Below, in pieces: positions 17,217 to 60,036 of a stretch of DNA of 64,000 bases. Positions within the stretch are counted from its first letter, which is position 1. Every line of letters begins with the position of its first letter. The notes under the pieces are model-generated. The model did no database searches and had not been told where the DNA came from. It saw nothing but the letters and a program-made list of their open reading frames with translations. The stretch is taken from the NCBI GenBank assembly GCA_025677605.1, contig GCA_025677605.1_4110.1. One strand, given 5' to 3'. The DNA comes from a phage. The position numbers and the translations under genes are program-made.

Positions 17217-17228
17217 TTTATACCTCTA

Positions 17229-18330: not shown

Positions 18331-18380
18331 AATAGTATCTCCCAAATTGTTAAGAAGAACTTGTTGTTCTTCAATATTAT

Positions 18381-18620
18381 TTAGGGGTTTTTTACAACCT
18401 CATGTGAAGCAATAAATGCTAAAATATCATCTTTACTAAACACTTCAATAATGTGAGAAATAGCAGCATCGTATTCTTCACGTCTTGATGTGTATTCTTT
18501 CATTTCATGAATTTTCTTTTGAGCTTTTTGTTTTGATTGGTTGATATCTGGAGTTTCAAATTTAACTCCCAAACTGTCAGCCAATGCACGTGCTCGTGAT
18601 GATACCTTATCGATATTCAT
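18381..18620 (-). CDS. hypothetical protein (79 aa)
   Basis: ORF in track. Confidence 0.4.
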   Translation of the reverse strand: MNIDKVSSRARALADSLGVKFETPDINQSKQKAQKKIHEMKEYTSRREEYDAAISHIIEVFSKDDILAFIASHEVVKNP

Positions 18621-18868
18621 TAGTTCCAGCGACCTTCTTTTAGCCCGTTAACAAAACCAGTACATCCACCAGGAACATACTCATCATTTACGAAAATTTG
18701 TGGAACTTGACGAACTGGCTCACCGCAAATTTCTGATAGTTTAGCACCATCAATACCTTCAGAAACCACATCGATAAAATCCATTTCAAATGAATTGTTC
18801 TCACAAATTGCTTTTGCTGTATCACAGAAATTACAACCAGTCGTGCGACCATAAATTTTCACTTTCAT
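18620..18868 (-). CDS. glutaredoxin/NrdC-like thiol-disulfide oxidoreductase
   Basis: CxxC active site (CNFC) near the N-terminus, 82 aa, C-terminal VPQIFVNDEYVPGG pattern typical of phage glutaredoxins. Confidence 0.65.
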   Translation of the reverse strand: MKVKIYGRTTGCNFCDTAKAICENNSFEMDFIDVVSEGIDGAKLSEICGEPVRQVPQIFVNDEYVPGGCTGFVNGLKEGRWN

Positions 18869-18872
18869 ATAA

Positions 18873-19289
18873 CTATCCTTTATTTTTTTGAAACAATTTA
18901 ACAGCTTTAATTATACTGTTACACATTCGTTCGGTCAAATACTTTTGACAATCTTGAACATCAATGTACATGAATTTATCCAATTCTGGATGGCTTTTAC
19001 CATATCGATTGGTATAAGTACTGTTACACTTCAGTTCATCCGGTTCGGGTTTGTATTTAGCTGTATAGAAAAATAAAACTAATCTTTTCCCTTTCCTGTA
19101 TGATACATCACCTAATAAGAGAAGATCCTTTTCATCAATCTCAAATCCTGTTTCTTCATAGCACTCACGAACAGCAGCTTCAGCAAATGTTTCATTGCCC
19201 TCGGTTTTACCTTTTGGTAAATCCCAATGCTTCTGTCCGTGTTGTGTGTCCAACAAGTATCTGACCATCACGATAAAATATAATGCCAC
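18873..19289 (-). CDS. NUDIX hydrolase
   Basis: Canonical Nudix box GKTEGNETFAEAAVRECYEETGF (GX5EX7REUXEEXGU). Confidence 0.8.
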   Translation of the reverse strand: MALYFIVMVRYLLDTQHGQKHWDLPKGKTEGNETFAEAAVRECYEETGFEIDEKDLLLLGDVSYRKGKRLVLFFYTAKYKPEPDELKCNSTYTNRYGKSHPELDKFMYIDVQDCQKYLTERMCNSIIKAVKLFQKNKG

Positions 19290-19341
19290 AACTATAACGC
19301 ATAATCTTATCTCTTAATAGCAATGATGCCCAGATACAATT

Positions 19342-19350
19342 ATTATATCA
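19342..19350 (-). promoter_or_regulatory. extended -10 element TGaTATAAT (no clear -35)
   Basis: Minus-strand TGATATAAT about 50 nt upstream of the NUDIX ATG, in the 86-bp gap after the CCA gene; same 9-mer as the consensus promoters at 3524 and 3617. Confidence 0.3.
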
Positions 19351-19375
19351 GAAGTCGTTCTCTTTTCCCAGAGTT

Positions 19376-20488
19376 TTAAAACATTTGTTGAATTGCTTCA
19401 CAACGTAAAACTGAAACAAAATCACGGATTTCAGATGCTTCTAACTCACCGTCTTTTACCAGTTGTTGAATATCTGGAAGTACTACATCAGTGTAACGAT
19501 CATATACCTTAATGATTAAATCTTCAAGGTCTAAATCAATCTCTTTACGTAGAATAAAATATTCCAGTACTTTGTAAAGGAATTCTTCACCGCCGTTATT
19601 CTTGATATTCATATCCAGTAATAATTGTCCCATTTCATTTGGGGTCTTTTTACGGAATGCCTTGATATCATCACGGAAACGTTTGATGTAATTACTGAAT
19701 TTAACGTACTTAACGGGCATTTTAATAGCACCATTCAGTACTGAATCCTCACCAATTTCTTCTTTCTCAAGAAGCACAGACCATAAGAAATATGGCTTAT
19801 ATGCTTCAGTACAATTATCAGAGATATGATCAATGAGTTCCAATGACTTTTTGGTTAATGTAGCATTAAATGCTTTTTCATAGTAACCAAACTTACTTAG
19901 TGTTTTAAGGAACTTAGCTGGCTTTTCTTCTGACAGTGCTTTTTCAAATTCAACATAAACACGGTCTGGAACAAGGTGATTTAGCTCACCAGACGCTACC
20001 ATATCGATTGCAAGTGCTTCAGTAGTCTCGTGTATAGAGAAATCAGAATAACGCGTAGCAAAGCGAGCTAGACGTAATACACGCAATGGATCTTCTTTGA
20101 AGTGTTCGGATACATGACGTAGTACTTTATTCTTGATATCAGCTTTACCACCGTATGGGTCGATGTGAATTTGCAGTACTGGATCATACGCGATTGCATT
20201 AATTGTAAGATCACGACGATACAAATCTTGTTCCAGTGTTACACCTTTTGTATCCACTTCGAAGCCACCGTATCCAGTACCAGTTTTTCGTTCAGTACGG
20301 GCTAATGCGTGTTCGTTACCTTCTGGGCTTAGATAAACTGGAAAATCTTTACCAACCTGTTTATATCCAATACTTTCTAAGTATTTGATATCAGATTCAG
20401 TTGCACCAACAATGACATAATCTTTGTCCTTTGCACGAATGCCCATTAGACGGTCGCGGCAGTATCCACCAACAAGGTATTTTTTCAT
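19376..20488 (-). CDS. cca: tRNA nucleotidyltransferase (CCA-adding enzyme)
   Basis: N-terminal LVGGYCRDRLMG with DxD-type nucleotidyltransferase motif; about 370 aa; ATG at 20488 with GGGAGAA RBS. Confidence 0.8.
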   Translation of the reverse strand: MKKYLVGGYCRDRLMGIRAKDKDYVIVGATESDIKYLESIGYKQVGKDFPVYLSPEGNEHALARTERKTGTGYGGFEVDTKGVTLEQDLYRRDLTINAIAYDPVLQIHIDPYGGKADIKNKVLRHVSEHFKEDPLRVLRLARFATRYSDFSIHETTEALAIDMVASGELNHLVPDRVYVEFEKALSEEKPAKFLKTLSKFGYYEKAFNATLTKKSLELIDHISDNCTEAYKPYFLWSVLLEKEEIGEDSVLNGAIKMPVKYVKFSNYIKRFRDDIKAFRKKTPNEMGQLLLDMNIKNNGGEEFLYKVLEYFILRKEIDLDLEDLIIKVYDRYTDVVLPDIQQLVKDGELEASEIRDFVSVLRCEAIQQMF

Positions 20489-23647: not shown

Positions 23648-24058
23648 TTAGTCGTAGTACGTTCTCCCTACTGTGAGGTGATAACGTAAGTACTTTGATT
23701 GTAATCCTAGTTCATTGCGAATGTGTCCAATGAATTCATCATCGAACTCTATGATAAAGAACGAGCCTGGTTTCTTTTTATCTTTCACTTGAACAATATC
23801 AGGATTGAATTTTATTTTAATTTTTTGACCATCGTACTTTTTCCAGTACTCTGGATTTGGTGGCACTTCACCTCGAACAATACTGACGTGTGCTCCCCAT
23901 TGTGGGTCTTTAACATCAATGTGTAGATCAGTTCTGATGAAGTACTGGTAGTATCTAACCAACTGTAATGGAAGTTGCAGTACTAACCAGAAGTCCTTCT
24001 TCTTTTTCATAGTGCCACGGTCTGGATCATACACCAGAGTTCCTTCCATTTCAATCAT
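23648..24058 (-). CDS. 2H phosphoesterase superfamily protein (LigT/cyclic phosphodiesterase-like)
   Basis: Two H-x-S/T-x motifs (HVSIV near residue 57, HLTVG near residue 127) at the spacing typical of the 2H fold; 136 aa. Confidence 0.5.
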   Translation of the reverse strand: MIEMEGTLVYDPDRGTMKKKKDFWLVLQLPLQLVRYYQYFIRTDLHIDVKDPQWGAHVSIVRGEVPPNPEYWKKYDGQKIKIKFNPDIVQVKDKKKPGSFFIIEFDDEFIGHIRNELGLQSKYLRYHLTVGRTYYD

Positions 24059-36577: not shown

Positions 36578-37819
36578 CTATTTCTTACCGTACCACTGCA
36601 TTTCTCGAATATCGATTAGAACTTTTGCAGCTAGTTGAATGTTTGGTTTCTTTGGTAGAACTGACTTAGGATACACCACATTGCGGATATAGTCAACCTT
36701 TTCATTGAAATAATCCATGACTTCTTCATACTTCCATTTACCGTTGCGGATATCCATTAGCATATCAGCATCAGGACGTTTAACAAGGATAATACCGCTT
36801 TGTAATGCTTCTTCGGCACTATTTAGCAGCCTGATCGTATGCATAGCATGTTTTAGATCGAAGCCGTGCTGTGATTCCATAAGAGCACGTTTAGCATTAC
36901 GATTCTCTTTCCATTTGTGATAACTTTTACGGTTCTCACTGTTCTCACTGTATTCTTTTTCATTGAATTTGACAATGAGTTCAGGTCGTACTTTCAATTC
37001 TTCAGTACTGCGTTCTTTGTTGAAATAACGTAAAGAACCATCAGCGTTAATTGTACTTTCATTAGGATTGATAATAACACCAAAGATATTTTCACCGTAA
37101 TGAATTAATTCGTACCCATTGTTATAATCCAATAAGTTGAAATCACGGTCTAGTACTTTATCAGTACTGTAATTATGTACTAAACGTACAAAATGATACT
37201 GTTTCAACGGATGAGTTGAAACTAACTGCAATGAAGTATCACGCATGTATTTTTCAAAATCTATTTTCTTAGCATTAAATGGATGTAGTTTAGAAGTATC
37301 TAAACGTTCTACCAAATAGTGTGGGAAGTTTTCATACATCCATGCTAAAGTTTCATCTACTGGAAAATCTTCTAAGATTTCATTTAGACGTTTTTCAGCA
37401 ATACGCTCTTTATCCATCCACCCGTGGTGATTGGACATACGCTTAACCTGATTATATGCATAACCGGTATAAGAGAATGCAATCTTAGAACTAAGTAATT
37501 GTTGATTGAATGTACGTAGATAATCATAGATTTCAGTACTTTCTACGATGTGTTCAGGATCAACCCATAGTGATTCAAGGATATTTGGGTTAGCCTCTGT
37601 GTATAGTCTTAAGTACTGATTTAGTTCATAGAATTTAGTATCTTCTTCTCTTGAATCAGAAACTTCTTTTACATTATAAAAAGGTGTCAGAATGAACTCT
37701 TTGTTAGCAAGAAAAATACCACGATAATCCGTATCACTTTCAGGTGTACTGGTTCCATACGCTTGTGAACCTGCTAAGTGCTTCACAATTGTTTGTTCAA
37801 GAAATTTGTTATTATTCAT
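36578..37819 (-). CDS. polymerase-beta superfamily nucleotidyltransferase (413 aa)
   Basis: N-terminal hG[GS]x9-13Dh[DE]h motif (LAGSQAYGTSTPESDTDYRGIF); ATGA overlap with the upstream gene. Confidence 0.55.
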   Translation of the reverse strand: MNNNKFLEQTIVKHLAGSQAYGTSTPESDTDYRGIFLANKEFILTPFYNVKEVSDSREEDTKFYELNQYLRLYTEANPNILESLWVDPEHIVESTEIYDYLRTFNQQLLSSKIAFSYTGYAYNQVKRMSNHHGWMDKERIAEKRLNEILEDFPVDETLAWMYENFPHYLVERLDTSKLHPFNAKKIDFEKYMRDTSLQLVSTHPLKQYHFVRLVHNYSTDKVLDRDFNLLDYNNGYELIHYGENIFGVIINPNESTINADGSLRYFNKERSTEELKVRPELIVKFNEKEYSENSENRKSYHKWKENRNAKRALMESQHGFDLKHAMHTIRLLNSAEEALQSGIILVKRPDADMLMDIRNGKWKYEEVMDYFNEKVDYIRNVVYPKSVLPKKPNIQLAAKVLIDIREMQWYGKK

Positions 37820-45977: not shown

Positions 45978-46137
45978 ATTAACCGCCGTGTTTAGAAAAT
46001 TCAACTGCTCTTAATTGTTTAAGTGCTTCTTTTCTGGTTGGGTGACGACCGAGAACTTTCTTCCCTGTGTGGTCAGTAACAACCCACTCATTTCCACGTT
46101 TCTGTATCTTTTCAGAAATAATATCAAGATAACGCAT
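45978..46137 (-). CDS. small hypothetical protein (52 aa)
   Basis: Unlisted ORF with strong RBS AAAGGAG before ATG at 46137; followed by the terminator. Confidence 0.35.
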
Positions 46138-46603
46138 AATCTACTCCTTTACGAAGAATACGTTGATTATTAGAGCCTCTAAATGGTAATTCTAAATTCT
46201 TTTCTTCAAGAATAAATTTACCATCAACTAATACATCAATGTACTCTAGTATTGCGGAGGCATGATTATTTATTATTTCCTCTAAAGTATAACCACTCCA
46301 GCACCAAATATCTTTATTTGGATATTTTTCTTTTACTACTTTACATAACTCAATAACAGTACTGATATTCTTTGGCATCAATGGATCACCACCTAAAAGG
46401 GATAATCCTTGTACATATGGCTTGTTAAGTTCATTCAGGATGATTTCAACTGTTTCAGTACTGAATACTTCCCCACTGCGATAATCCCATGCTTTTTCGT
46501 TGAAGCATTCTTCACATCCGTGGCTACACCCTGAAACAAAAAGGGAGCATCTAACTCCCTCCCCATTAACTAAATCATCCTTGATTATCGTTTGGTAATT
46601 CAT
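46124..46603 (-). CDS. nrdG: anaerobic ribonucleotide reductase activating protein (radical SAM)
   Basis: Radical-SAM cysteine motif CSHGCEEC near the N-terminus; 159 aa; in the nrdD cluster. Confidence 0.85.
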   Translation of the reverse strand: MNYQTIIKDDLVNGEGVRCSLFVSGCSHGCEECFNEKAWDYRSGEVFSTETVEIILNELNKPYVQGLSLLGGDPLMPKNISTVIELCKVVKEKYPNKDIWCWSGYTLEEIINNHASAILEYIDVLVDGKFILEEKNLELPFRGSNNQRILRKGVDYALS

Positions 46604-46910
46604 CTAATATTGCACTCACTATTTCCACAAGAACATCACCATGACATGATTTTGGCTTACAAAAGCACCCAAGACGCTTCCCAGCCAATTCAAGTAGTTC
46701 TTCGATAGTAACCTCACCATTTTCAATTCTTTGGATAAGATACTCTCTGAACTTCTCAATCGACTCTTCTCGTGTCGGAACTATAAACTCTGCCTTTGTT
46801 TGTTTGTCATTAATGTGGGTAAATGGATTTCCCCATTTGGACCCACGACCAATATACACATCATATGGTTCTTTATATTTGTTAACTACAATTGGTTTTA
46901 AGTCCATCAT
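46575..46910 (-). CDS. conserved hypothetical protein with G-x-W-G-N-P-F and C-x-C-x-P-x-x-C-H-G-D motifs
   Basis: 111 aa; motifs [12 protein letters not shown] and [14 protein letters not shown]; sits between grcA-like and nrdG. Confidence 0.45.
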
Positions 46911-47278: not shown

Positions 47279-49084
47279 TTACATGTGTTGTATACGTTGA
47301 ATAACTTCAGCTTGTTTACCTTTATTGAACGGGCGACTATTTGGTGCACTAAGATATCCTGATACTCTGCGAATAACCGACATTGTACGTTCATTGCGGT
47401 TGTCACATACCGGACAATGGAAACCATTTTTATCTACACTAAATTCACCCTCAAAATCACATTCAAAACACTTATCGACCTTCTGATTAATACCAAAATA
47501 TGGAATTTTAGTATAAGCAAAATTTATTAATGTTTCAAGTGCTTGTATATTATTAGCTAGATTTGGTGTTTCGACATAGCTAATATTACCACCATTGCTT
47601 AGATAAGCAAAGTTTTCCTCATAATCCCATTTAGCAAAAGGTGTACTTTCAACCCATACTGGTTGATGGAATGAGTTAGTGATAAAGTCACGTTTCAGTA
47701 CTGAAGGATGTTTTGCCTCAATACAACGTGCAAATTTATAACATAGTGATTCTGCTGGTGTACCGTAAAGACTAAATGCAATGTTACTCTCTTTTTTGAA
47801 TTCATCACATTTTGCTTTCATGTAGTTCAAAATACTCATACAGAACTCTTTACTAATTGAACCAGTGAGGATCTCTGAGCACTCAGATAACCCAACATAA
47901 CCAATACTGATACTAGCATAACCATTATAAAATAAATGGTCAATAGTGTCTTCAGGATCAAGACGTGCAATCGCACCTTCAGCGAAAAGTATAGGGTTTT
48001 GTTTTGCCTTTGTACCTTTTAAACGTTCTACACGGTTCATCTGTGCTCTGTAAGCAATATTCATGTGCTCGTCAATCTTATCAAAGAAATCACCATCAGA
48101 CTCACTCTCAAGAGCAATTAGTGGTAAGTTGATAGACACAACGCCAAGGTTGAATCTACCATTGTATTTTTCTTCTCCTTGTATATTTTCCCATTTCCCT
48201 AAGAAACTTCTGCATCCCATAGGAGTAACAGGAATAGTTGTGCTTCCAGTAACTTTTTGATTCAAAGGTACTGATACAAAATCAGGATAGATGCGTTTAG
48301 CTGCACAACGCATAGCTAATTGTTTTAAGTCATAATTACAATCAGTACTGTTCATATTAATTCCATCCTGAAGAAAGAATATTACTTTAGGGAATACTGG
48401 AGTAATCTTATCTTTACCTAGTCCATTTTCATGTACTTTCAAATATTGTTCAGTGATTAGTTTTTCAAATTTAGATGTACCTAATCCTAAACTCAAAGAA
48501 ATGAACGCAGCCTGACCATTAGTACTGATCATTGAGTTTGTTTGATATAGAATTGTTTGACAACCGTCATAAACTTCCTTACGCAACTCATCTTCGATGA
48601 ATTCAGTACTAAGATTGTATTTCTTTTGTTTTTCTAGAAGTTTATCCCATGACTTTTGTACATATGGTGCAAGGCCAGTGTCAATGTGAGCCAACGACTG
48701 ACCACCGTACTGTGAACTTGCCACAGCCTGAACAATCTGTGTTAGTACTGTACAAGCTACCCCAAAGCTTTTTGGTTCTTCAATCTTGGCACAACCAATC
48801 ATGAAGCCATTAGCAAGCATATCAGGATAATTAACTAAACAACAGTTTGTTAATGGGCTAATGTAATAGTCTAAATCATGAATATGACCGTAACCTTCAT
48901 TATGCCACTTCATCAATTCATCAGGAATCACATCTTGGGAATAATGTTTAGAAAGAATACCTGCCAATAAATCACGATGTGTATTAACACATTTAGCGTC
49001 TTTATTTGCATTTTCGTTTGTTAAATCAGCGTTACTCTGGTTGAGGAAGTTAGTTACGTCCGTATATAATTTATCTATTTGCAT
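47279..49084 (-). CDS. nrdD: anaerobic ribonucleoside-triphosphate reductase (class III)
   Basis: 601 aa; C-terminal zinc ribbon (CFECDFEG…CPVCDN) followed by the glycyl-radical motif RRVSGYLS. Confidence 0.9.
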   Translation of the reverse strand: MQIDKLYTDVTNFLNQSNADLTNENANKDAKCVNTHRDLLAGILSKHYSQDVIPDELMKWHNEGYGHIHDLDYYISPLTNCCLVNYPDMLANGFMIGCAKIEEPKSFGVACTVLTQIVQAVASSQYGGQSLAHIDTGLAPYVQKSWDKLLEKQKKYNLSTEFIEDELRKEVYDGCQTILYQTNSMISTNGQAAFISLSLGLGTSKFEKLITEQYLKVHENGLGKDKITPVFPKVIFFLQDGINMNSTDCNYDLKQLAMRCAAKRIYPDFVSVPLNQKVTGSTTIPVTPMGCRSFLGKWENIQGEEKYNGRFNLGVVSINLPLIALESESDGDFFDKIDEHMNIAYRAQMNRVERLKGTKAKQNPILFAEGAIARLDPEDTIDHLFYNGYASISIGYVGLSECSEILTGSISKEFCMSILNYMKAKCDEFKKESNIAFSLYGTPAESLCYKFARCIEAKHPSVLKRDFITNSFHQPVWVESTPFAKWDYEENFAYLSNGGNISYVETPNLANNIQALETLINFAYTKIPYFGINQKVDKCFECDFEGEFSVDKNGFHCPVCDNRNERTMSVIRRVSGYLSAPNSRPFNKGKQAEVIQRIQHM

Positions 49085-50128: not shown

Positions 50129-50493
50129 GTATGGATAATCTCTTTTACCCCGTACTCCTGAATTGCTAATGTACAAATCTCACAAGGTTTTGCTGAAACT
50201 GGAATTCCATCTTTACTTACACGAGCGATAAGAAGAGTATGTACTTCAGCACGAGCAGCAAGAAGACACGAAATTTCAGCGTGTAAAAATTCCCCTTGAG
50301 GGCGACCAGCACGAATTGCAAAGCCTTTCTGCTTAGGGTGAGTCTGTGTGTAAGAGTTGGTACGAGTAGCCAGTACTCGACCTTTCTTATCCAGTGCACG
50401 AGCAATTACTCTATACCGTTTGTAATTGCCAACTTGTTCAATCGGCGGCATCTCACGGAGTTCTTCTACCAGTTTAAGCAATTTCGGGTTCAT
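50125..50493 (-). CDS. zinc-dependent nucleoside/nucleotide deaminase (CDA fold, TadA/dCMP-deaminase-like)
   Basis: HAE…PCxxC zinc-binding signature (HAEISCL … PCEICTLAI); 122 aa; ATGA overlaps on both sides. Confidence 0.6.
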   Translation of the reverse strand: MNPKLLKLVEELREMPPIEQVGNYKRYRVIARALDKKGRVLATRTNSYTQTHPKQKGFAIRAGRPQGEFLHAEISCLLAARAEVHTLLIARVSKDGIPVSAKPCEICTLAIQEYGVKEIIHT

Positions 50494-51107
50494 ATGTTGT
50501 AGTCTATGCCTTTTCTAAGTGATTCCTCAAGCACCCATAGTTTACATTCCTCGGATTGTAAATGTTTGTTTGCCTCTTCTTGTTCTTCTATTGTACAAGT
50601 TTTGAGGAATTCTTTCAAGGCTTTTATTGTACCTTTAATGTTTTCAATATCACCTGGAATATAATCAAGTTCAATTTCAGATAATTTTGAGTTCTCCCAT
50701 GTGTTACGAAGTTCTGCTGGTTGGAACATTGATGAAGGAAAAGCACTTTTCGTCACTACACGCTGATGTACAGCATCATACTTAGCTTCCGCTTCTTCTT
50801 GTGTGTAATCACCGTACTTTTCTAGGATCTTGGTGTATAAATTATCAATTGCTTCTTCATATGTATCACCACCACAATCCAACTCGTACTCATGTCCACG
50901 AACGAACTTCCCTTCGTCTTCATCGAAAAACGGAGTTAGCATTTCGATCCAGTACTGTGTTTTTGTATTCAGTGCCGGATAATCTTCAATACGATTGGTG
51001 ATAGGACATACATCGTGTGGCTCAACATCAATGCGAGCATCAACGTAGTCTTTATTGATAAATTCAGGGTGTCCCAAAATCCACCAGTACTTTTGTGATG
51101 TTGTCAT
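50490..51107 (-). CDS. hypothetical protein (205 aa)
   Basis: ORF in track. Confidence 0.4.
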   Translation of the reverse strand: MTTSQKYWWILGHPEFINKDYVDARIDVEPHDVCPITNRIEDYPALNTKTQYWIEMLTPFFDEDEGKFVRGHEYELDCGGDTYEEAIDNLYTKILEKYGDYTQEEAEAKYDAVHQRVVTKSAFPSSMFQPAELRNTWENSKLSEIELDYIPGDIENIKGTIKALKEFLKTCTIEEQEEANKHLQSEECKLWVLEESLRKGIDYNI

Positions 51108-51114
51108 GATATCC

Positions 51115-51474
51115 TCAAATGTAACGTTTCTTTTTATAATCGTACCCTATTGCTTTGTAAAAGTCAAATAACGAAGCATGTTCAAACGTAGGTAATAGAT
51201 CATATGGGTGCTGATAGTTTGCAATGCCAACAATTTTAAGCATTGATACCGCAGTTCTTGCATTCTCTTCATCCCATTCGTCTAAACGCCAAAGGGAACA
51301 AAGTACTGCTCGTTCATGTTGCTTACCGAGAAAGAATTCAGCTTCACGGTCACGGAATGCACCTACGCTGATAGTACTTTTGTACCAGTCTTTCTCACCA
51401 TAAGCTGGTAGACGAATGATGTGCTTTTCTTCAGCTTTACCAAAACGATGTAGGAATGCAACATAATCACTCAT
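51115..51474 (-). CDS. hypothetical protein (119 aa)
   Basis: ORF in track. Confidence 0.4.
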   Translation of the reverse strand: MSDYVAFLHRFGKAEEKHIIRLPAYGEKDWYKSTISVGAFRDREAEFFLGKQHERAVLCSLWRLDEWDEENARTAVSMLKIVGIANYQHPYDLLPTFEHASLFDFYKAIGYDYKKKRYI

Positions 51475-54326: not shown

Positions 54327-54354
54327 TAAAAAATCCCTGCCAATTGACAGGGAT
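54327..54354 (-). terminator. rho-independent terminator
   Basis: Perfect 7-bp stem ATCCCTG/CAGGGAT with 8-nt loop, followed on the minus strand by UUUUUUAUUGG. Confidence 0.5.
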
Positions 54355-54457: not shown

Positions 54458-54646
54458 TCAAAAACCTTTTTGTGCAACCAGTTCACGATATTGTGCACGT
54501 GTTAGTACACCTTGCTTACGTAGAGACTGAAGCCCACTTAAAGTTTCAGCTTTACGTAGCTCATAAGTGCGTTGTTCTTTGGATTGAATAACTTTCACTT
54601 TTTTAACTTTAACTTCTGGTTCTTTTTTCTTAGGTTGTTTAGCCAT
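54458..54646 (-). CDS. small basic protein, possible nucleic-acid binding (62 aa)
   Basis: K/R-rich N-terminus (MAKQPKKKEPEVKVKKVKV); RBS GAAGGAAG before ATG at 54646. Confidence 0.45.
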   Translation of the reverse strand: MAKQPKKKEPEVKVKKVKVIQSKEQRTYELRKAETLSGLQSLRKQGVLTRAQYRELVAQKGF

Positions 54647-54714
54647 GATTTACTTCCTTCTTCGATAATGGTGTGTTCATTATAGCAATGAACACATTTA
54701 ATGTCAATAATAGA

Positions 54715-56154
54715 TTACATATTTTCTTCTGCAAACTCTGCAAGTGCAGAACGTACAACACCTTCCAATTCAATGATACGACACCCTTCCCAATCTTTGA
54801 ATTTTTCAGTTACATATGTCAAACCACTATTAACTGGACTAATAAACTTACTATCAATCTGTGCTAAGTTACCCATAATGATAACCTTACAGTTTTGACC
54901 TGCACGGGTAAGAATAGTTTTTGCCTGTGCAGGGGTGATGTTCTGGAATTCATCAACAATTAGAATTGTATTAGTAAAAGAACGACCACGAATAAAGTTC
55001 AATGCTTTAAACTGCATTACGTTACGTTTGAGAATCTCTTCAATGCTACCTTGTGGGTTAGCATCATCTTTGTGTAGATACTCTAGAGCATCGATTGCAG
55101 CCCCACAGAATGGGATGACCTTTTCAGCTTCAGAACCGGGTAAGAAACCAATTTCTTCAAATTGTGAATCTTGTGTTTTGGAGAAGATGATACGATCGTA
55201 TTTACGCTTCTCTAGTACTAATTCGAGTGAAGTAGCAACAGTAATCAATGTTTTACCAGTACCTGCTGAACCAAGTAGTACTGTCAAATGTACATCAGGG
55301 TCAAGAATACTGTTAATTGCTAGTGCCTGTTGAATATTCTTTGCTTTAATATCCCAAACTTTAGCACGAAGAGCGATACTTTGACCAATATCCTGGAATA
55401 CCAAAATATCTTCAGGTGTTAGTGAACCGTCTTCTTCTTCGATAGCAGATTGACCTTCGTATACGAATAGTACATCAGCATTATCATATAGATAATCACC
55501 AATACATAGATTATCTGGAAGAACATCTTGAATCAATGCGGTTGGAATATAGTGATATAGACGGCGACCTTCTTGTTGGGATTTAATTTCAGCATTGTTA
55601 ACTTCACTGAATGTTTTCCAGAAATCAATATCAAGGTGGTGCTGCCCAATATGAATCAACTCACTATCTTCGATTGCAACGTCATGACGGTAATCTTGTA
55701 CCTCAACACCGTAGCTCATTGCTTTGATACGCATGTTAATGTCGCGAGTTACCAGTACTGATTGTGATGCCAAAGCCACTAGAATGATTTTGTCATCTGG
55801 TACAGTACTTTTAAGTAGAGTTTCTACTTTATCTTCACTGCCGCCCATACGAATAAGTGCTTCAGCTTCTTCATTCGTCATAACGAATAGCTTACTGGAT
55901 GCATCCATATTTTTGTGGATATTGGCAATATTAACACCAGTACTGCTGATTTCTTCATGAGTAGCATCTTTCAAAATTGCATCGATGTTACGGATTGCGA
56001 AACGTGCATCACGTGATACGTCAACATTACGGCTCTTGATTGAATCAAGTTCTTCAAGAACAGTGAATGGTAGAATCACTGCTGCCCCATCAAATGCTAC
56101 GGTTGCATTTGGATCGGATAGTAGTACGTTTGTGTCAATTGTGTATTTTTTCAT
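54715..56154 (-). CDS. phoH: PhoH-like ATPase with N-terminal PIN domain (PhoH2-type)
   Basis: N-terminal PIN-like segment (YTIDTNVLLSDPNA…), Walker A GSAGTGKT, Walker B ILIVDEFQN; ATG at 56154 with AAGGA RBS (the track start at 56178 is GTG). Confidence 0.8.
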   Translation of the reverse strand: MKKYTIDTNVLLSDPNATVAFDGAAVILPFTVLEELDSIKSRNVDVSRDARFAIRNIDAILKDATHEEISSTGVNIANIHKNMDASSKLFVMTNEEAEALIRMGGSEDKVETLLKSTVPDDKIILVALASQSVLVTRDINMRIKAMSYGVEVQDYRHDVAIEDSELIHIGQHHLDIDFWKTFSEVNNAEIKSQQEGRRLYHYIPTALIQDVLPDNLCIGDYLYDNADVLFVYEGQSAIEEEDGSLTPEDILVFQDIGQSIALRAKVWDIKAKNIQQALAINSILDPDVHLTVLLGSAGTGKTLITVATSLELVLEKRKYDRIIFSKTQDSQFEEIGFLPGSEAEKVIPFCGAAIDALEYLHKDDANPQGSIEEILKRNVMQFKALNFIRGRSFTNTILIVDEFQNITPAQAKTILTRAGQNCKVIIMGNLAQIDSKFISPVNSGLTYVTEKFKDWEGCRIIELEGVVRSALAEFAEENM

Positions 56155-56218: not shown

Positions 56219-56518
56219 TTATTGTGGCTCATAGTCAACGTAGCAGCGGTGACCGCGAGCCTTTTCTGTCCAGCATTCATTGTAAACAATTTGCCCAACT
56301 GAAACTGGTTTCCTTGATGCTCCATACTTAATAGACCCATCTTCAGTCTTATAAGTAAATGAACATGTATTTTCTTCACACTGCCCTATGTCAGTAACAA
56401 CAGCAGTACGGTAGTATATATCTCTGTGTTTGGTTTGATCTTGATGATAAAAGAACCAAAACCCAATAAGAAATATAATACTTGTGATTATAAAGCTTTG
56501 TATATGATGTTTTGTCAA
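56219..56518 (-). CDS. small membrane protein (99 aa)
   Basis: N-terminal TM helix (FIITSIIFLIGFWFFY), Cys-rich C-terminal part. Confidence 0.4.
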   Translation of the reverse strand: MTKHHIQSFIITSIIFLIGFWFFYHQDQTKHRDIYYRTAVVTDIGQCEENTCSFTYKTEDGSIKYGASRKPVSVGQIVYNECWTEKARGHRCYVDYEPQ

Positions 56519-56847
56519 TTGTCCCCTCTCAAAAATCTAAAACCATTCTGTAAGTACGTGTCAATGTTGACCTTCCCTACAGGATTACTGCTATGGATGA
56601 TATAATCGAATTCAGTACTGATATTGTTTTCGACCATATAATCAATTAGAAATTTTGCAAATGAATACCCTGTCTTTTCATCCTCCCCAACATCACCTAA
56701 GTCATGATCGAAGCTAATAAATTGTGGTAAACCATGTTCATTTACATAAGCACATGCACTTTCATAATCACGACATAAAACCATGTTTTGATTTGGATAA
56801 TACTTTTCAGGATCACGAATATCATCCAGAAACATTGAGTAAGACAT
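56515..56847 (-). CDS. hypothetical protein with FLDDIRDP and FDHDLGD motifs (110 aa)
   Basis: ORF in track; co-transcribed immediately downstream of the NUDIX-like and SIR2 genes. Confidence 0.4.
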   Translation of the reverse strand: MSYSMFLDDIRDPEKYYPNQNMVLCRDYESACAYVNEHGLPQFISFDHDLGDVGEDEKTGYSFAKFLIDYMVENNISTEFDYIIHSSNPVGKVNIDTYLQNGFRFLRGDN

Positions 56848-56858: not shown

Positions 56859-57407
56859 TTATAAGTAACTAATCAGTAAATTCTCGGATTGAACAAGATG
56901 TTCTAATTCCATTTTAGCAGTTCCTATGAAGTTTTGTGTCATAAGATTATTATATCCTGCTTCTCGGTTTTGTCCCTTTGAATAACGAGAAATGTGACAT
57001 AAATTAACACCAGCCACTTCTGCACTTGCATGTTTAGCAGTACTGTATCCATCGCGAATCGCTTTCAATTCTTCGTAAGTAACTTCATAACTATAGCTAT
57101 GGGTATGTGCTCCTAGATATAGTTCGTAAGTTTTCAATGGTTTCAATTGTTCGATGAAAATATTATAATTCATCTCTTCCTGAATTTCACGGAATAGTGC
57201 ATCTTCTAAGGTGGCATCGGTATCTTCGACTGTTCCACCACAACCACCCAGTAAACCATCCCAACGAAGCTGGAGTAATACCAGATTCACAACAGGGATA
57301 TCATTTAATTCATAACCTTTATATGGGTTACAATTTCGAGCAAAGAAGTAACAGAATACAAAGTTTGCTCGTTTACCATACTCACCTAGAGGTACTTCTC
57401 GAATCAT
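56859..57407 (-). CDS. NUDIX-like hydrolase (degenerate Nudix box)
   Basis: Segment GGCGGTVEDTDATLEDALFREIQEEM contains the REUxEE core with non-canonical spacing and no trailing Gly; ATG overlaps the SIR2 stop (ATGA). Confidence 0.5.
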   Translation of the reverse strand: MIREVPLGEYGKRANFVFCYFFARNCNPYKGYELNDIPVVNLVLLQLRWDGLLGGCGGTVEDTDATLEDALFREIQEEMNYNIFIEQLKPLKTYELYLGAHTHSYSYEVTYEELKAIRDGYSTAKHASAEVAGVNLCHISRYSKGQNREAGYNNLMTQNFIGTAKMELEHLVQSENLLISYL

Positions 57408-58156
57408 TTCATTCTATCCTTAATGATAGTTTCCAGTACTGGAATCGCTTTTGTAGCTGGTTTTATAATTTTTTCATTGAACATGAAATCGTTATCATTT
57501 TTTCTGATGTTGATATTAATACTAAAGCATGGCAAACAAGCAACCAGATGTGACCATTTCAGTACTGTGTCACTGCTACCAATGACTACAACTGTATCAT
57601 CTTCTGTTAAGGATTGCAATACTAAATTACGCTCATCGTATATTGGGAGTTTTTCACCATCAACATAACGATAATATTCACCAATGAACACTACGTTTGG
57701 TTTCGCAAAGACACCTTCTTTCGGAATGTACGGTTCATAACCACAATCCACAATACTATAATCGTCACCACCAATTGTAAAATTCTCAATAACTTCTTTT
57801 AAATTACCATGTAACTTTAATTCATTGCCACCAATACGAGTATAGAGATCATCCATATTCGAAGTCATATGTAAAAAGTTATCACCGTATGTATCTTCTA
57901 GAGATTTGATATAATAATGCATATCATTAGGAACACAATCTTTCATTTTAACACGTAATGTGTTATAGAAAGTATGCACTAAATGGTACTTAGTACTAAG
58001 ACGTGCAATGTTACATACATCATTTATTTGAAATTGATCCCATAGGCCATCGTCCATGCGAAACGGTTCCATCCCACTTTCAACGGATAGACCTGCACCG
58101 GAAATAACCAATACACGTTTATTACCTTTATTTTTTATAAAAGAGTCAGAAATCAT
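57404..58156 (-). CDS. SIR2-family (sirtuin-like) NAD-dependent protein
   Basis: Sirtuin catalytic motifs in order: GAGLSVESGMEPFR, TSNMDDL (NID-like), LHG (catalytic His), GSSDTV; no zinc-ribbon cysteines seen; 250 aa. Confidence 0.7.
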   Translation of the reverse strand: MISDSFIKNKGNKRVLVISGAGLSVESGMEPFRMDDGLWDQFQINDVCNIARLSTKYHLVHTFYNTLRVKMKDCVPNDMHYYIKSLEDTYGDNFLHMTSNMDDLYTRIGGNELKLHGNLKEVIENFTIGGDDYSIVDCGYEPYIPKEGVFAKPNVVFIGEYYRYVDGEKLPIYDERNLVLQSLTEDDTVVVIGSSDTVLKWSHLVACLPCFSININIRKNDNDFMFNEKIIKPATKAIPVLETIIKDRMK

Positions 58157-58365
58157 AGCTTACCTACTGTACCTAATGAACTCAAATCGTATACAAATAA
58201 GATACACACAACCGAGATGACAATGTGATATATCATCCATCCATTGAATTTCTCTTTGTTTTTGATAATTTTATATATACATTTAATATTATTGTACGCT
58301 ACAACTGCTAGAAATACAACAACAAAATAAACAAAGCATAGTGAAAAGTAATTGATAGTTATCAT
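58153..58365 (-). CDS. small membrane protein (70 aa)
   Basis: Two predicted TM helices; ATGA overlap with the SIR2 start. Confidence 0.4.
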   Translation of the reverse strand: MITINYFSLCFVYFVVVFLAVVAYNNIKCIYKIIKNKEKFNGWMIYHIVISVVCILFVYDLSSLGTVGKL

Positions 58366-58425
58366 AGTTATAATACTCTCCTTATTAAATTAATATAGGG
58401 GATTATAAGAATCCCCTTTTTTGTA

Positions 58426-59028
58426 TTACAGCTTAGGATAGCTTAGTAAATCATACTCAGCACTAACGCTGGTAACATTATCACTTACAATTTTGAAGAT
58501 AGAATCGGTGCGATCAACCATCTTAACACCTGTTTCTTTTTGAACTTCAATATATGCTTGCATAGCTGCAATTGCATGATATGTACCACTACCAACAGAT
58601 GTAATTTGTGTCTTAGGTTGGAGTACTGAAAAATCCTCTTGAACTTCATAAATTGTATGATTATGAAGAATAATAAACTGTCCACCACCAACGTCTTGAG
58701 TTGTATCACGAGCACCCCATTCTTCTTTAAATAGTGTGCGAATACGTGGGATTACCTCAAGTACTAAGTACTGTGAGAATGTTTGGTTTGATTGCTGTTC
58801 AGGTAAATCAAGTTTATACGTCAGCAATTGTCCCATGCGGAAGCTCGACGTGTATCCCATTGCCATAACTTCTTTGGTGCGATTCAATCCACTTTCATCG
58901 ATTTTGATGAATTCTTTTTCAAACACTTTTGGTTCAGTTTGAATTGCTTTAGTGAAACCATTACTACCCAGTTTGTCACCCGCGATAAAAGATGTGTTAC
59001 CATCAGTGTAAGCAATAATACAAGTCAT
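58426..59028 (-). CDS. Ntn-hydrolase, proteasome beta/HslV-like peptidase
   Basis: Thr at position 2 (MTCIIAYTDGNTSFIAGDK) and later SVGSGTYHAIAAMQA follow the HslV/proteasome-beta pattern; GGAG RBS. Confidence 0.5.
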   Translation of the reverse strand: MTCIIAYTDGNTSFIAGDKLGSNGFTKAIQTEPKVFEKEFIKIDESGLNRTKEVMAMGYTSSFRMGQLLTYKLDLPEQQSNQTFSQYLVLEVIPRIRTLFKEEWGARDTTQDVGGGQFIILHNHTIYEVQEDFSVLQPKTQITSVGSGTYHAIAAMQAYIEVQKETGVKMVDRTDSIFKIVSDNVTSVSAEYDLLSYPKL

Positions 59029-59039
59029 TGATATCTCCG

Positions 59040-59336
59040 TTATAAAAGATGCATTACATCTAAGATTGTGTACATGAAATACAATAGTAAACCCAAAATT
59101 ATGAGTAAAATTGTATACGAAATTTTAAAGAAATAATAAAAGTACTTTTCAGTTTTAGAAGAAAACTCACCATTTTCTTCAAGAAAACCACTCTTGAAAT
59201 CACTTGCCATAATCACTGATAAAAGAACAATGATTCCATATGTAACTATAGTAGCATAGAAGATGAACTCTGTCCAGCCTTGAAGATGTGATAATTCTGT
59301 CATTTTTTGTTTCCTTGGTTGATAATGTACAACCAT
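59040..59336 (-). CDS. small membrane protein (98 aa)
   Basis: Two to three predicted TM helices. Confidence 0.4.
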   Translation of the reverse strand: MVVHYQPRKQKMTELSHLQGWTEFIFYATIVTYGIIVLLSVIMASDFKSGFLEENGEFSSKTEKYFYYFFKISYTILLIILGLLLYFMYTILDVMHLL

Positions 59337-59430
59337 TATATCTTAAAATCGGGTGGCAGTACACCACCCTTAACCAAAATCATGAATTAGTATTAGGATT
59401 ATATCATTGCTTCATAAAAAATACAACTTT

Positions 59431-60036
59431 TTATTGAATGATTCCCCATTTAACGAGATCTGATCTTCGTAATACAACGATATCCTCACCATGTTTAGTA
59501 CTGATATCAATGAGTGTTTCAGCGGGGATACCGTTATGTGCGTACAGTGTAAAAAGATACCCAACTTTAGTTGAGACTTGATGTGTAAACTCCATCAACT
59601 GTCTAACTGAAACGAATGTCGTATCTGGATCTGCACCATTCGTAGATACTAGTGAGATGTTATGTAAACCCATCACTGCGGTATCACTCATATCCCTACG
59701 TTCAGATGATGCAGAGAAAAAAACCAGACTACAAGACGAATTACATTGCTTTGGGACATAAACAGTTAACTTTTTAGCAGCCACAAAAAATCCCAAATCT
59801 AATCCTGCATCAAAATCTCCACCAGGTGATGTTATTGTTATAATTTTAAATCTTGTTTCTTTCCACAACTTCTTCACTTCTTGTACAGTTTCATCATTTA
59901 GTTCACCATCAATTGACACAACATGTTCATTTAATAGAAAAACAGATGATTTTTTTGAAACTTCTGCCGCTGCCGGAAAGTTTAATGCAGCGATTAAAAC
60001 AACGGTTTGTACAATCTCTTTCAAGATTCGTTTCAT
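59431..60036 (-). CDS. exported ClpP/S49-like serine peptidase
   Basis: Signal peptide (…LIAALNFPAAA-EV) then ClpP-like ITITSPGGDFDAGLDLGFF block; GAGG RBS before ATG at 60036. Confidence 0.5.
   Translation of the reverse strand: MKRILKEIVQTVVLIAALNFPAAAEVSKKSSVFLLNEHVVSIDGELNDETVQEVKKLWKETRFKIITITSPGGDFDAGLDLGFFVAAKKLTVYVPKQCNSSCSLVFFSASSERRDMSDTAVMGLHNISLVSTNGADPDTTFVSVRQLMEFTHQVSTKVGYLFTLYAHNGIPAETLIDISTKHGEDIVVLRRSDLVKWGIIQ

What the first reader, a model, noticed from the sequence alone, without database searches (positions are those of the whole stretch)
56859..58156. Translationally coupled SIR2-family and NUDIX-like genes in a phage operon: candidate NAD+/ADP-ribose module
The 250-aa protein carries the ordered sirtuin catalytic motifs (GAGLSVESGMEPFR, NID-like TSNMDDL, HG, GSSDTV) but no recognisable zinc-ribbon cysteines, which is more typical of defence-associated or ADP-ribosylating SIR2 variants than of deacetylases. 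Its stop overlaps the ATG of a NUDIX-like protein (ATGA), and its own ATG overlaps the stop of a small membrane protein, so stoichiometric co-expression is implied. SIR2 enzymes make ADP-ribose-type products from NAD+ and NUDIX enzymes hydrolyse them, so this could be a host-NAD+ manipulation or counter-defence module. The same genome also has a macro domain, a canonical NUDIX and a 2H phosphoesterase.
Basis: partly seen in the sequence, partly recalled or inferred. Interest (0 to 1): 0.75.

Follow-up and report, generated by a model that had tools for sequence, protein, structure and literature searches.

The report
Phage sirtuin–Nudix–cREC operon, already described
A giant E. coli phage carries a tightly packed gene set for an NAD-consuming sirtuin, a NUDT16-like Nudix enzyme and further RNA-related enzymes; the set is real and conserved, was already predicted in the literature to be an NAD-dependent RNA-repair module, and has not been tested experimentally.

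Summary
On the minus strand, 57404-58156 encodes a 250-aa sirtuin and 56859-57407 a 182-aa Nudix protein, with ATGA overlaps at both junctions. The window is 99% identical to Asteriusvirus phage A4.

The sirtuin is CobB-like by sequence and predicted fold. It keeps the NAD motifs, Asn100/Asp102 and His116, and lacks the zinc cysteines. It matches no defence-system SIR2 model. The Nudix protein is a full-length NUDT16 homologue with an intact Nudix box.

The order is conserved in RaK2-like jumbo phages, and Nudix and cREC are fused in two of them. Related phage sirtuins sit beside an RNA ligase with cREC, or beside an RNA-repair HAD phosphatase.

Iyer et al. (Viruses 2022) already described this neighbourhood. 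They predicted that the sirtuin removes RNA 2'-phosphates as KptA does, with Nudix and cREC clearing the ADP-ribose by-product. I rank that first at modest confidence. A CobB-like protein deacylase and a counter-defence role are live rivals. Four-base overlaps are common in this genome. The finding is already known, and the biochemistry is untested.

The parts
58153..58365 (-). 70-aa protein with two hydrophobic segments. Its stop overlaps the sirtuin ATG (ATGA). It is the first gene of the tightly packed run.
   Evidence: Homologue found only in Asteriusvirus (ELP-22, 40% identity). BF, GAP32 and RaK2 carry unrelated small proteins at this position. No Pfam or PHROG family.
57404..58156 (-). 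250-aa CobB-like sirtuin without zinc cysteines. It keeps the NAD-binding motifs, Asn100/Asp102 and His116.
   Evidence: Pfam SIR2 E 1.9e-19 and phrog_2162 E 2.9e-72. E. coli CobB is 29% identical over the full length, E 3e-29. AF2 model pLDDT 90.7; Foldseek top hit is CobB with TM 0.76-0.85. G20, G22, N100, D102, H116, Y64, R68 and C48 are invariant in 21 homologues. No PADLOC hit.
56859..57407 (-). 182-aa NUDT16-like Nudix pyrophosphatase. Its ATG overlaps the sirtuin stop (ATGA).
   Evidence: Pfam Nudt16-like E 5.5e-19 and phrog_9999 E 4.3e-84. Human NUDT16 structures align over aa 28-178, E about 1e-13. G57, G58, E61, R73, E74, E77 and E78 are invariant.
56515..56847 (-). 110-aa cREC protein (cyclic-phosphate processing receiver-like domain), 11 nt downstream of the Nudix gene.
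56219..56518 (-). 99-aa protein with an N-terminal membrane anchor and a conserved four-Cys domain. Its TTG start overlaps the cREC stop (TTGA).
   Evidence: phrog_14661 'membrane protein' E 1.3e-32. Homologues sit at the same position in ELP-22, BF, GAP32, RaK2 and metagenomic locus L013, E 1e-23 to 1e-40.
54715..56154 (-). 479-aa PIN + PhoH protein (PhoH2-type RNA helicase/nuclease), 64 nt downstream of the 99-aa gene (40 nt if the GTG start at 56178 is used).
   Evidence: Pfam PIN_4 E 1.2e-21 and PhoH E 1e-43. NCBIfam 'RNA 5'-3' helicase PhoH2' scores 162 bits, below the equivalog cut-off. 69% identical to BF PhoH. Acidic PIN residues and the Walker A motif GSAGTGKT are visible in the translation.
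58397..58417 (.). 8-bp GC-rich hairpin between the HslV-like peptidase gene and the 70-aa gene. It may be an attenuator or processing site at the upstream edge of the run.
   Evidence: Consensus scan only. Function not shown.
54679..54707 (-). Perfect sigma-70 consensus promoter (TTGACA-17-TATAAT with TG) just after the PIN-PhoH stop. It marks the downstream boundary of the unit.
   Evidence: Consensus scan. Function not shown.

Best explanation
This is the Asteriusvirus copy of a conserved jumbo-phage module with the gene order small membrane protein, sirtuin, NUDT16-like Nudix, cREC, membrane-anchored Cys-rich protein, PIN-PhoH2.

Shown: the sirtuin has an intact NAD+ pocket and the catalytic Asn, Asp and His. 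The Nudix has an intact catalytic box. cREC has a receiver-like fold with a conserved acidic pocket. The gene order is conserved, and Nudix and cREC are fused in some phages.

Inferred: the sirtuin uses NAD+ to transfer ADP-ribose onto an oxygen nucleophile and releases nicotinamide. The Nudix then cuts the pyrophosphate of the ADP-ribose-containing product, and cREC processes its phosphate or cyclic phosphate.

The most likely acceptor is a phosphate on damaged RNA, as Iyer et al. 2022 predicted. In that reading the sirtuin works like KptA/Tpt1: it removes a 2'-phosphate as ADP-ribose 1'',2''-cyclic phosphate. Alternatively it caps phosphorylated RNA ends with ADP-ribose, which the NUDT16-like enzyme then removes. 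PIN-PhoH2 would supply RNA unwinding and cleavage. It works like KptA but is not a KptA homologue.
For: Catalytic competence: sirtuin; Nudix; cREC.

Conserved linkage: sirtuin-Nudix-cREC-TM-PIN/PhoH is found in A4, ELP-22, BF, GAP32 and RaK2. Gene junctions are tight (-4, -4, +9, -1, -1 nt). Nudix and cREC are fused in BF and GAP32.

RNA context in other lineages of the same sirtuin clade: in Vequintavirus JES2013 a T4-type RNA ligase overlaps cREC by 4 nt, followed by the sirtuin and a gene annotated as a nucleotide pyrophosphohydrolase. A P-loop kinase, a metallophosphatase and tRNA genes lie alongside. In T5 the sirtuin is followed by a 'Swiss-army-knife' RNA-repair HAD phosphatase, with PhoH nearby. 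Distant cREC genes lie 2-4 kb from RNA-ligase genes in 2 of 3 jumbo contigs sampled.

Literature: the published prediction describes exactly this neighbourhood (PMC9503650 section 3.7.3). Human NUDT16 removes ADP-ribose from RNA ends modified by the KptA homologue TRPT1 (PMC6582358).

Chemistry (established knowledge, from memory): both sirtuin deacylation and the Tpt1 reaction begin with an oxygen nucleophile attacking C1'' of NAD+. Both then proceed by attack of the ADP-ribose 2''-OH to give a 1'',2''-cyclic species.
Against: No experiment exists for any phage-clade sirtuin or for cREC in the searchable literature.

The nearest characterised relatives are protein deacylases.

Phage A4 encodes T4-type Pnkp and Rnl1 about 20 kb away. 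From established knowledge, that pathway heals ends to 2'-OH/3'-OH and leaves no 2'-phosphate, so a KptA-like step has no obvious substrate.

The sirtuin is acidic (pI 5.3), which is not what one expects of an RNA-binding enzyme.

The related locus L013 keeps sirtuin-TM-PIN/PhoH but lacks Nudix and cREC, so these partners are dispensable.

PIN nucleases are metal-dependent and do not make cyclic phosphate ends (established knowledge).

KptA neighbourhoods in two phages showed no parallel Nudix/cREC context.
Confidence: 0.4

Rival explanations
1. The sirtuin is a CobB-like NAD-dependent protein lysine deacylase that resets acylation of host or phage proteins during infection. The Nudix enzyme hydrolyses the O-acyl-ADP-ribose by-product to AMP plus acyl-ribose-5-phosphate, and cREC dephosphorylates the remainder.
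For: The closest sequence and fold relatives are E. coli CobB, archaeal Sir2Af and SIRT5, with full-length alignment. The best NCBIfam models are all 'NAD-dependent protein deacylase'. The catalytic His that deacylation needs is invariant, as is the FGE-type loop residue E160. Tyr64, the equivalent of CobB Tyr92, is invariant. From memory, Nudix enzymes such as Ysa1 and NUDT5 hydrolyse O-acetyl-ADP-ribose.
Against: Scores are far below the CobB equivalog cut-offs (92 vs 318 bits). The zinc cysteines that hold the small domain together in the canonical sirtuins the literature describes are missing. CobB Arg95 is replaced by Leu67. The small domain carries a clade-specific (D/N)(I/V)GY motif that CobB lacks. 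Recurrent linkage to RNA ligase, RNA-repair HAD, cREC and PhoH is not explained by protein deacylation.
Confidence: 0.3
2. This is the first reader's idea: a counter-defence or host-NAD module. The enzymes would destroy or divert NAD-derived immune signals or toxic ADP-ribose derivatives, for example from Thoeris or other TIR/SIR2 systems, or otherwise manipulate the NAD+ pool.
For: In BF, GAP32 and RaK2 the module lies directly downstream of NatV (NMNAT+Nudix) and NadV, the NAD+ reconstitution pair known as NARP2. In BF and GAP32 it also follows a small 2H protein, and the BF copy matches Pfam Acb1 (anti-CBASS), E 3.6e-15. There is a precedent: the anti-Thoeris enzyme RyDEP is embedded in a NARP1 operon (PMC13232231). 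The Aravind group predicts that cREC and Nudix domains degrade soluble ADP-ribose derivatives.
Against: A sirtuin consumes NAD+, which works against rescue from NAD depletion. This phage lacks NadV, NatV and the Acb1-like gene near the module, and no Asteriusvirus appeared among the listed NadV matches, yet the module is retained. No known sirtuin activity degrades cADPR-type signals. T5-like and rV5-like relatives sit in RNA-repair contexts. No anti-defence phenotype is reported.
Confidence: 0.2
3. The genes are neighbours only because the genome is tightly packed. Sirtuin, Nudix, cREC and PhoH act in unrelated processes, and the ATGA overlaps carry no functional meaning.
For: Four-base overlaps occur at about 10% of same-strand junctions, and over half of all gaps are 15 nt or less. 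Locus L013 has the sirtuin and PIN-PhoH without Nudix or cREC. The 70-aa upstream gene is not conserved outside the genus.
Against: The order is conserved across genera whose sirtuins are only about 40% identical. Nudix and cREC are fused in BF and GAP32. In rV5-like phages the position after the sirtuin is taken by a different gene annotated as a nucleotide pyrophosphohydrolase, with cREC again adjacent.
Confidence: 0.1

Closest known systems
Phage sirtuin-centred 'NAD+-utilising RNA-repair systems' (Iyer, Burroughs, Anantharaman, Aravind, Viruses 2022, PMC9503650 section 3.7.3, configuration 1; prototype Serratia phage BF)
   Same: It has the same sirtuin clade (BF sirtuin 41% identical, E 1e-65) and the same partners: Nudix, cREC and PIN endoRNase/PhoH. 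The order is the same and the hosts are also RaK2-like jumbo phages.
   Different: Here Nudix and cREC are separate genes rather than a fusion. The 2H gene and the NadV/NatV genes that precede the module in BF and GAP32 are absent and replaced by ClpP-like and HslV-like protease genes. The paper's functional claim is a prediction, not a demonstrated activity.
E. coli CobB and class III sirtuins (SIRT5, Sir2Af1)
   Same: It shares the two-domain sirtuin fold, the GAGxS and N-x-D motifs, the catalytic His, the FGE-type loop and the Tyr equivalent to CobB Tyr92. Identity is 29% over the full length, with TM 0.76-0.85.
   Different: It has no zinc-binding cysteines. Arg95 is replaced by Leu, GTS becomes GSS, and there is a 13-residue insertion after the FGE loop. 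It scores well below the NCBIfam CobB cut-offs and has a phage-specific small-domain motif.
KptA/Tpt1 RNA 2'-phosphotransferase with 2H cyclic phosphodiesterase and macro-domain processing of ADP-ribose 1'',2''-cyclic phosphate
   Same: This is the proposed functional analogue. It is NAD+-dependent, uses an oxygen nucleophile on C1'', forms a 1'',2''-cyclic product, and has downstream enzymes to clear the ADP-ribose derivative (reaction chemistry from established knowledge).
   Different: There is no homology, since KptA has the ART fold. KptA occurs in other phage lineages (98 records, none counted under Escherichia). The sampled KptA neighbourhoods lack Nudix and cREC.
Human NUDT16 (U8 snoRNA decapping enzyme, (d)IDPase, ADP-ribose phosphodiesterase)
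   Same: Homology runs the full length, the Nudix box is conserved and the C-terminal FIG(S/T)A motif is shared. NUDT16 cleaves the pyrophosphate of protein- and RNA-linked ADP-ribose (PMC6582358).
   Different: The phage protein is prokaryotic-viral, and its close relatives are restricted to RaK2-like jumbo phages (88 records matched, the rest weak Aeromonas-phage hits). Its substrate is unknown. It is not detectably related to T4 NudE.
Phage NAD+ reconstitution pathways and embedded anti-signal enzymes (NARP2 NadV/NatV; RyDEP within NARP1)
   Same: In sister genera the module is contiguous with NadV and NatV. Embedding an ADP-ribose-processing enzyme in an NAD-salvage operon has a precedent.
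   Different: This phage shows no NadV or NatV in the window, and no Asteriusvirus appeared among the listed NadV matches. A sirtuin consumes NAD+ rather than rebuilding it.
SirTM-macrodomain ADP-ribosylation pairs
   Same: It pairs a sirtuin with an enzyme that acts on ADP-ribose adducts.
   Different: SirTM keeps the zinc domain and replaces the catalytic His with Gln (PMC4518038). The phage enzyme does the reverse and is linked to a Nudix, not a macro domain.

Membership tests
SIR2/sirtuin superfamily (Pfam PF02146) | Profile match above the curated cut-off | tested here: met
   70.8 bits against a cut-off of 24, aa 20-198 covering profile positions 1-178 of 180.
SIR2/sirtuin superfamily (Pfam PF02146) | Rossmann NAD+ motifs (GAGxS, N-x-D) and the catalytic His | tested here: met
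   G20, G22, N100, D102 and H116 are invariant in 21 homologues and align with CobB N130, D132 and H147.
SIR2/sirtuin superfamily (Pfam PF02146) | Two-domain sirtuin fold | tested here: met
   AF2 pLDDT 90.7. Foldseek aligns 242-249 columns to CobB, TM 0.76-0.85.
SIR2/sirtuin superfamily (Pfam PF02146) | Four-cysteine zinc site in the small domain | tested here: not met
   There is one Cys between H116 and the FGE-type loop. T5 and BF homologues also lack the cysteines. Of 169 near relatives scored, 92 have fewer than three Cys in this segment.
CobB-type (class III) protein deacylase | NCBIfam equivalog score | tested here: not met
   Best score is 91.8 bits against a cut-off of 318.
CobB-type (class III) protein deacylase | Tyr-x-x-Arg pair that binds acidic acyl groups (CobB Y92/R95; role known from memory) | tested here: inconclusive
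   Y64 is conserved. R95 is replaced by L67. The neighbouring R68 (CobB R96) is invariant.
CobB-type (class III) protein deacylase | NAD-dependent deacylase activity | not testable with these tools
   Needs an enzyme assay.
Defence-associated SIR2 (ThsA, DSR1/2, SIR2-HerA, pAgo-SIR2) | Match to defence-system SIR2 profiles, or closest fold among them | tested here: not met
   No PADLOC hit at E <= 0.01. All 50 top Foldseek PDB hits are canonical sirtuins.
SirTM ADP-ribosylating sirtuins | Catalytic His replaced by Gln; linked to a macro domain | tested here: not met
   His116 is invariant. No macro gene is adjacent. The class definition comes from PMC4518038.
Phage 'RNA-repair' sirtuin systems of Iyer et al. 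2022 | Phage-clade sirtuin linked to Nudix, cREC and a PIN endoRNase | tested here: met
   All are present in one run on one strand. The run is orthologous gene for gene to the Serratia phage BF locus.
Phage 'RNA-repair' sirtuin systems of Iyer et al. 2022 | Linked 2H phosphoesterase | tested here: not met
   No homologue of the BF 2H gene in the window. That BF gene scores as Acb1-like.
Phage 'RNA-repair' sirtuin systems of Iyer et al. 2022 | KptA-like removal of RNA 2'-phosphate | not testable with these tools
   This is a prediction only. No experimental paper was found.
NUDT16-like Nudix (Pfam PF22327) | Profile match above cut-off and full-length similarity to solved NUDT16 | tested here: met
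   69.1 bits against a cut-off of 27. Human NUDT16 chains score E about 1e-13, aa 28-178 against 30-181.
NUDT16-like Nudix (Pfam PF22327) | Nudix box with REx2EE catalytic glutamates | tested here: met
   GGTVE...REIQEE is present. G57, G58, E61, R73, E74, E77 and E78 are invariant in 11 sequences.
NUDT16-like Nudix (Pfam PF22327) | Pyrophosphatase activity on ADP-ribose derivatives or RNA caps | not testable with these tools
   Needs an enzyme assay.
cREC (Pfam PF20274) | Profile match, receiver-like fold and conserved aspartates | tested here: met
cREC (Pfam PF20274) | Cyclic-phosphate hydrolysis | not testable with these tools
   Never assayed, according to PMC9503650.
PhoH2 (PIN + PhoH RNA helicase/nuclease) | N-terminal PIN domain plus C-terminal PhoH ATPase | tested here: met
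   PIN_4 E 1.2e-21 and PhoH E 1e-43. The NCBIfam PhoH2 equivalog cut-off is not reached (162 vs 680 bits).

The most novel reading that the evidence does not exclude
The zinc-less phage sirtuin could be the first sirtuin that acts on nucleic acid. It would transfer ADP-ribose from NAD+ onto RNA phosphate groups, either removing a 2'-phosphate as KptA does or capping RNA ends with ADP-ribose. The NUDT16-like Nudix and cREC would convert the ADP-ribose cyclic-phosphate by-product into AMP plus a phosphoribosyl species. In sister phages, that species together with nicotinamide could feed NadV/NatV to rebuild NAD+. The first part has been proposed in print. The recycling loop is my inference.
Probability: 0.25. 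Interest if true: 0.75.

Novelty: already known. Interest (0 to 1): 0.3.

Why it matters
The sirtuin clade to which this gene belongs is widespread: 984 phage records matched, including T5-like, rV5-like and RaK2-like jumbo phages. Yet no member, and no cREC domain, has been assayed in the literature I could search. If the published prediction is right, this would be a sirtuin working on RNA and a second, unrelated solution to the KptA/Tpt1 reaction. It would also give a function to the long-unexplained phage PhoH genes that travel with it. If the enzyme is instead a deacylase or a counter-defence factor, that bears on how large phages manage host NAD+. For a genome scan, the locus adds no new kind of system. 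Its value is as a compact and well-defined experimental target.

Tried and rejected
1. Defence-type SIR2: rejected. No PADLOC hit and no defence SIR2 among the top fold matches.
2. SirTM-type ADP-ribosyltransferase: rejected, because the catalytic His is kept and no macro domain is linked.
3. Relation of the Nudix to T4 NudE, which is active on ADP-ribose and FAD: BLASTP found nothing. The 'NudE' labels on weak Aeromonas-phage hits are not informative.
4. A 2H phosphoesterase near the module or in the window: no homologue of the BF 2H gene. The ORF at 23648-24058 has two HxS/T motifs but no Pfam, PDB or pairwise support.
5. NadV/NatV in this phage: not in the window, and no Asteriusvirus among the 60 best-ranked of 938 NadV matches.
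6. Mutual exclusion of KptA and the phage sirtuin as evidence of functional replacement: the listed carriers do not overlap, but only about 2 overlaps are expected by chance, so this is uninformative.
7. Parallel Nudix/cREC context around phage KptA genes: not seen in two loci.
8. Zinc loss as a unique feature: it is clade-wide and mixed with zinc-containing relatives.
9. MazG assignment of the rV5-like gene after the sirtuin: only a weak PRA-PH hit, E 0.099.
10. Isoelectric point as a test of RNA binding: all soluble module proteins are acidic, including PIN-PhoH, so it is not decisive.
11. Promoter and terminator scans are consensus matches at background frequency (42 found, 37 expected) and only suggest operon limits.
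Full report
**Observation.** All genes in the region lie on the minus strand. ORF 56859-57407 encodes a 182-aa protein. The sequence shows ATGA overlaps at 57404-57407 (sirtuin stop with Nudix start) and at 58153-58156 (stop of a 70-aa ORF with sirtuin start). The 70-aa product has two hydrophobic segments. Four-base overlaps are not special here, however. With crude gene calls, 9 of 88 same-strand junctions in the window overlap by exactly 4 nt, 21 overlap in some way, and the median gap is 13 nt.

**Source.** The region is 99% identical to Escherichia phage A4, a 355-kb Asteriusvirus, and about 75% identical to other members of that genus. In A4 the sirtuin is annotated 'Sir2-like protein' and the Nudix gene 'hypothetical'. 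In congeners the pair is annotated 'Sir2 NAD-dependent deacetylase' and 'nudix hydrolase'.

**The sirtuin.**
- Family matches: Pfam SIR2 matches at E 1.9e-19 over the whole profile, and PHROG 2162 at E 2.9e-72.
- Closest solved relative: the best sequence match among solved structures is E. coli CobB, followed by archaeal Sir2Af and SIRT5. BLASTP against MG1655 CobB-S aligns the full length at 29% identity, E 3e-29.
- Predicted fold: an AlphaFold2 model built from 21 homologues is confident (pLDDT 90.7, pTM 0.89). Foldseek places CobB first (TM 0.76-0.85 over 242-249 columns), and all 50 top hits are canonical sirtuins.
- Conserved residues: G20, G22, N100, D102, H116, Y64, R68 and C48 are invariant among homologues. 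They map to CobB G48, G50, N130, D132, H147, Y92, R96 and A76. CobB R95 is replaced by L67.
This is a feature of the clade rather than of this gene. The T5 and BF homologues lack them too. Among 169 near relatives that could be scored, 92 have fewer than three cysteines in this segment and 77 keep three or more, mostly as CxxC pairs. Many of both kinds share a small-domain motif (D/N)(I/V)GY that CobB lacks.
- What it is not: the protein matches no PADLOC defence model. It scores far below the NCBIfam CobB equivalog cut-offs.
The inference from zinc loss to a defence or ADP-ribosylating type is therefore not supported.

**The Nudix protein.** It matches Pfam Nudt16-like (E 5.5e-19) better than generic NUDIX (E 4.7e-6). 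It aligns over aa 28-178 with solved human NUDT16 and Xenopus X29, E about 1e-13 to 1e-10. The Nudix box GGTVE...REIQEE is invariant in eleven homologues. Close relatives (49% identity or more) occur only in RaK2-like jumbo phages, and every such locus I examined has the gene next to the sirtuin. T4 NudE is not detectably related.

- Its stop overlaps, as TTGA, the TTG start of a 99-aa protein. That protein has an N-terminal membrane anchor and a conserved four-cysteine domain.
- About 60 nt further on starts a 479-aa PIN + PhoH protein of the PhoH2 type.
- A consensus sigma-70 promoter follows its stop. A hairpin precedes the 70-aa gene. A promoter-like site lies upstream of the ClpP-like gene. 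These are pattern matches only.

**Comparative context.**
- BF, GAP32 and RaK2 carry the same order: sirtuin, Nudix, cREC, membrane protein, PIN-PhoH. Nudix and cREC are fused in BF and GAP32. The sirtuin-Nudix junctions are +9, -1 and -1 nt.
- In those three phages the module follows NatV (NMNAT + Nudix) and NadV. In BF and GAP32 it also follows a small 2H protein, and the BF copy scores as Acb1-like, E 3.6e-15.
- The window has none of these three genes. No Asteriusvirus appears among the 60 best-ranked NadV matches, which extend down to 34% identity.
- A metagenomic relative, L013, has sirtuin, the 99-aa homologue and PIN-PhoH but no Nudix or cREC.
- The sirtuin clade is large, with 984 phage records matched.
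- In T5 the sirtuin is followed by a 'Swiss-army-knife' RNA-repair HAD phosphatase and lies near PhoH and NrdD.
- In Vequintavirus JES2013 a T4-type RNA ligase overlaps cREC by 4 nt. The sirtuin and a gene annotated as a nucleotide pyrophosphohydrolase follow. A P-loop kinase, a metallophosphatase and tRNA genes lie beside them.
- Two of three distant cREC genes sampled lie within 4 kb of an RNA-ligase gene.
- Phage A4 itself encodes T4-type Rnl1 and Pnkp about 20 kb upstream of the sirtuin.

[quoted passage not shown] They propose that the sirtuin acts like KptA in removing RNA 2'-phosphates, with the partner enzymes processing cyclic phosphates or the ADP-ribose cyclic phosphate product. Their 2021 jumbo-phage paper defined cREC. 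They state that cREC is experimentally uncharacterised. My searches found no experimental work on phage sirtuins or cREC. Human NUDT16 removes ADP-ribose from RNA ends modified by TRPT1, the human KptA homologue (PMC6582358).

**Mechanism.**
- Shown: the catalytic equipment of sirtuin, Nudix and cREC is intact and conserved. Their linkage is conserved and in part fused.
- Inferred: the sirtuin consumes NAD+ and makes an ADP-ribose-containing product, which the Nudix and cREC then process.
- First choice (0.4): I rank an RNA-phosphate acceptor first because three separate lineages of this sirtuin clade place it beside RNA end-healing or sealing enzymes. From established knowledge, the sirtuin and Tpt1 reaction paths are also chemically parallel.
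- Evidence against the first choice: there is no experiment. The nearest characterised relatives are deacylases. T4-type healing leaves no 2'-phosphate. The sirtuin is acidic. Nudix and cREC are dispensable in L013. KptA loci show no parallel context.
- Rivals: a CobB-like protein deacylase with O-acyl-ADP-ribose clearance (0.3) and a counter-defence or NAD-signal role (0.2) remain open. The counter-defence reading is supported mainly by the NARP2 and Acb1-like neighbours in sister genera and by the RyDEP precedent. Mere adjacency without functional coupling is unlikely (0.1).

**Verdict.** The finding is real and correctly located. Its fold assignments are right and its functional reading is partly right. 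The locus is an already annotated and already described member of a published, computationally predicted phage system. Novelty is 'already known', and interest is modest (0.3). That interest rests entirely on the fact that the biochemistry of a very widespread phage sirtuin clade and of cREC is still untested.

Noticed in passing
window 54679-54707 (-): A perfect sigma-70 consensus promoter (TTGACA, 17 nt, TG-extended TATAAT) lies directly after the PIN-PhoH stop and ahead of a 62-aa lysine-rich ORF (54458-54646). A terminator-like hairpin follows at 54333-54354.
   Followed up: no
window 23648-24058 (-): A 136-aa ORF has two HxS/T motifs (HVSI, HLTV) spaced as in 2H phosphoesterases. It has no Pfam, PDB or pairwise similarity to the BF 2H protein, and its PHROG family 12204 has unknown function.
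   Followed up: partly
window 16839-20488 and 36578-37819 (-): The window holds several RNA/tRNA-themed genes: a CCA-adding enzyme (19376-20488), a canonical NUDIX (18873-19268), a weak macro domain (17557-18033), a weak PTH2-like protein (16839-17216), and an RlaP 'RNA repair pathway' nucleotidyltransferase (36578-37819).
   Followed up: partly
window 46575-46910 (-): A DUF4326 protein (E 5e-25) lies among the anaerobic ribonucleotide reductase genes (47279-49084 and 46124-46603).
   Followed up: no
window 50490-51474 (-): Relative to phage A4, the window lacks about 850 bp, including the 267-aa gene A4_484. The homologues of A4_483 and A4_485 are only 7 nt apart here.
   Followed up: no
window 56219-56518 (-): The 99-aa membrane-anchored protein between cREC and PIN-PhoH has four conserved cysteines and a TTG start. 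It is kept even in the locus that lost Nudix and cREC (L013), so it may be a core partner of the sirtuin/PhoH pair.
   Followed up: partly
L005 3961-4176 (phage BF gp111); L006 3965-4201 (GAP32_118A): In BF and GAP32 the small gene just upstream of the zinc-less sirtuin encodes a protein of about 75 aa with a CxxC...CxxC zinc-ribbon pattern. In GAP32 it overlaps the sirtuin start by 4 nt. No equivalent exists in the window.
   Followed up: no
L005 3504-3950 (phage BF gp110): This gene is annotated 'RNA ligase' and was counted as '2H' in the published neighbourhood. It matches Pfam Acb1 (anti-CBASS 2H phosphodiesterase) at E 3.6e-15. It lies between the NadV/NatV genes and the sirtuin module.
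   Followed up: partly
window 58426-60036 (-): Upstream of the module lie an HslV-like peptidase (PHROG 1040, E 3.6e-21), a 98-aa hydrophobic protein and a ClpP/NfeD-like protease (PHROG 26024). They occupy the position that NadV, NatV and the 2H gene hold in sister genera.
   Followed up: no
L017 24706-27857 (phage A4 74706-77857): Phage A4 encodes T4-type RNA ligase 1 and polynucleotide kinase-phosphatase about 20 kb upstream of the sirtuin on the same strand. This lies outside the window.
   Followed up: yes
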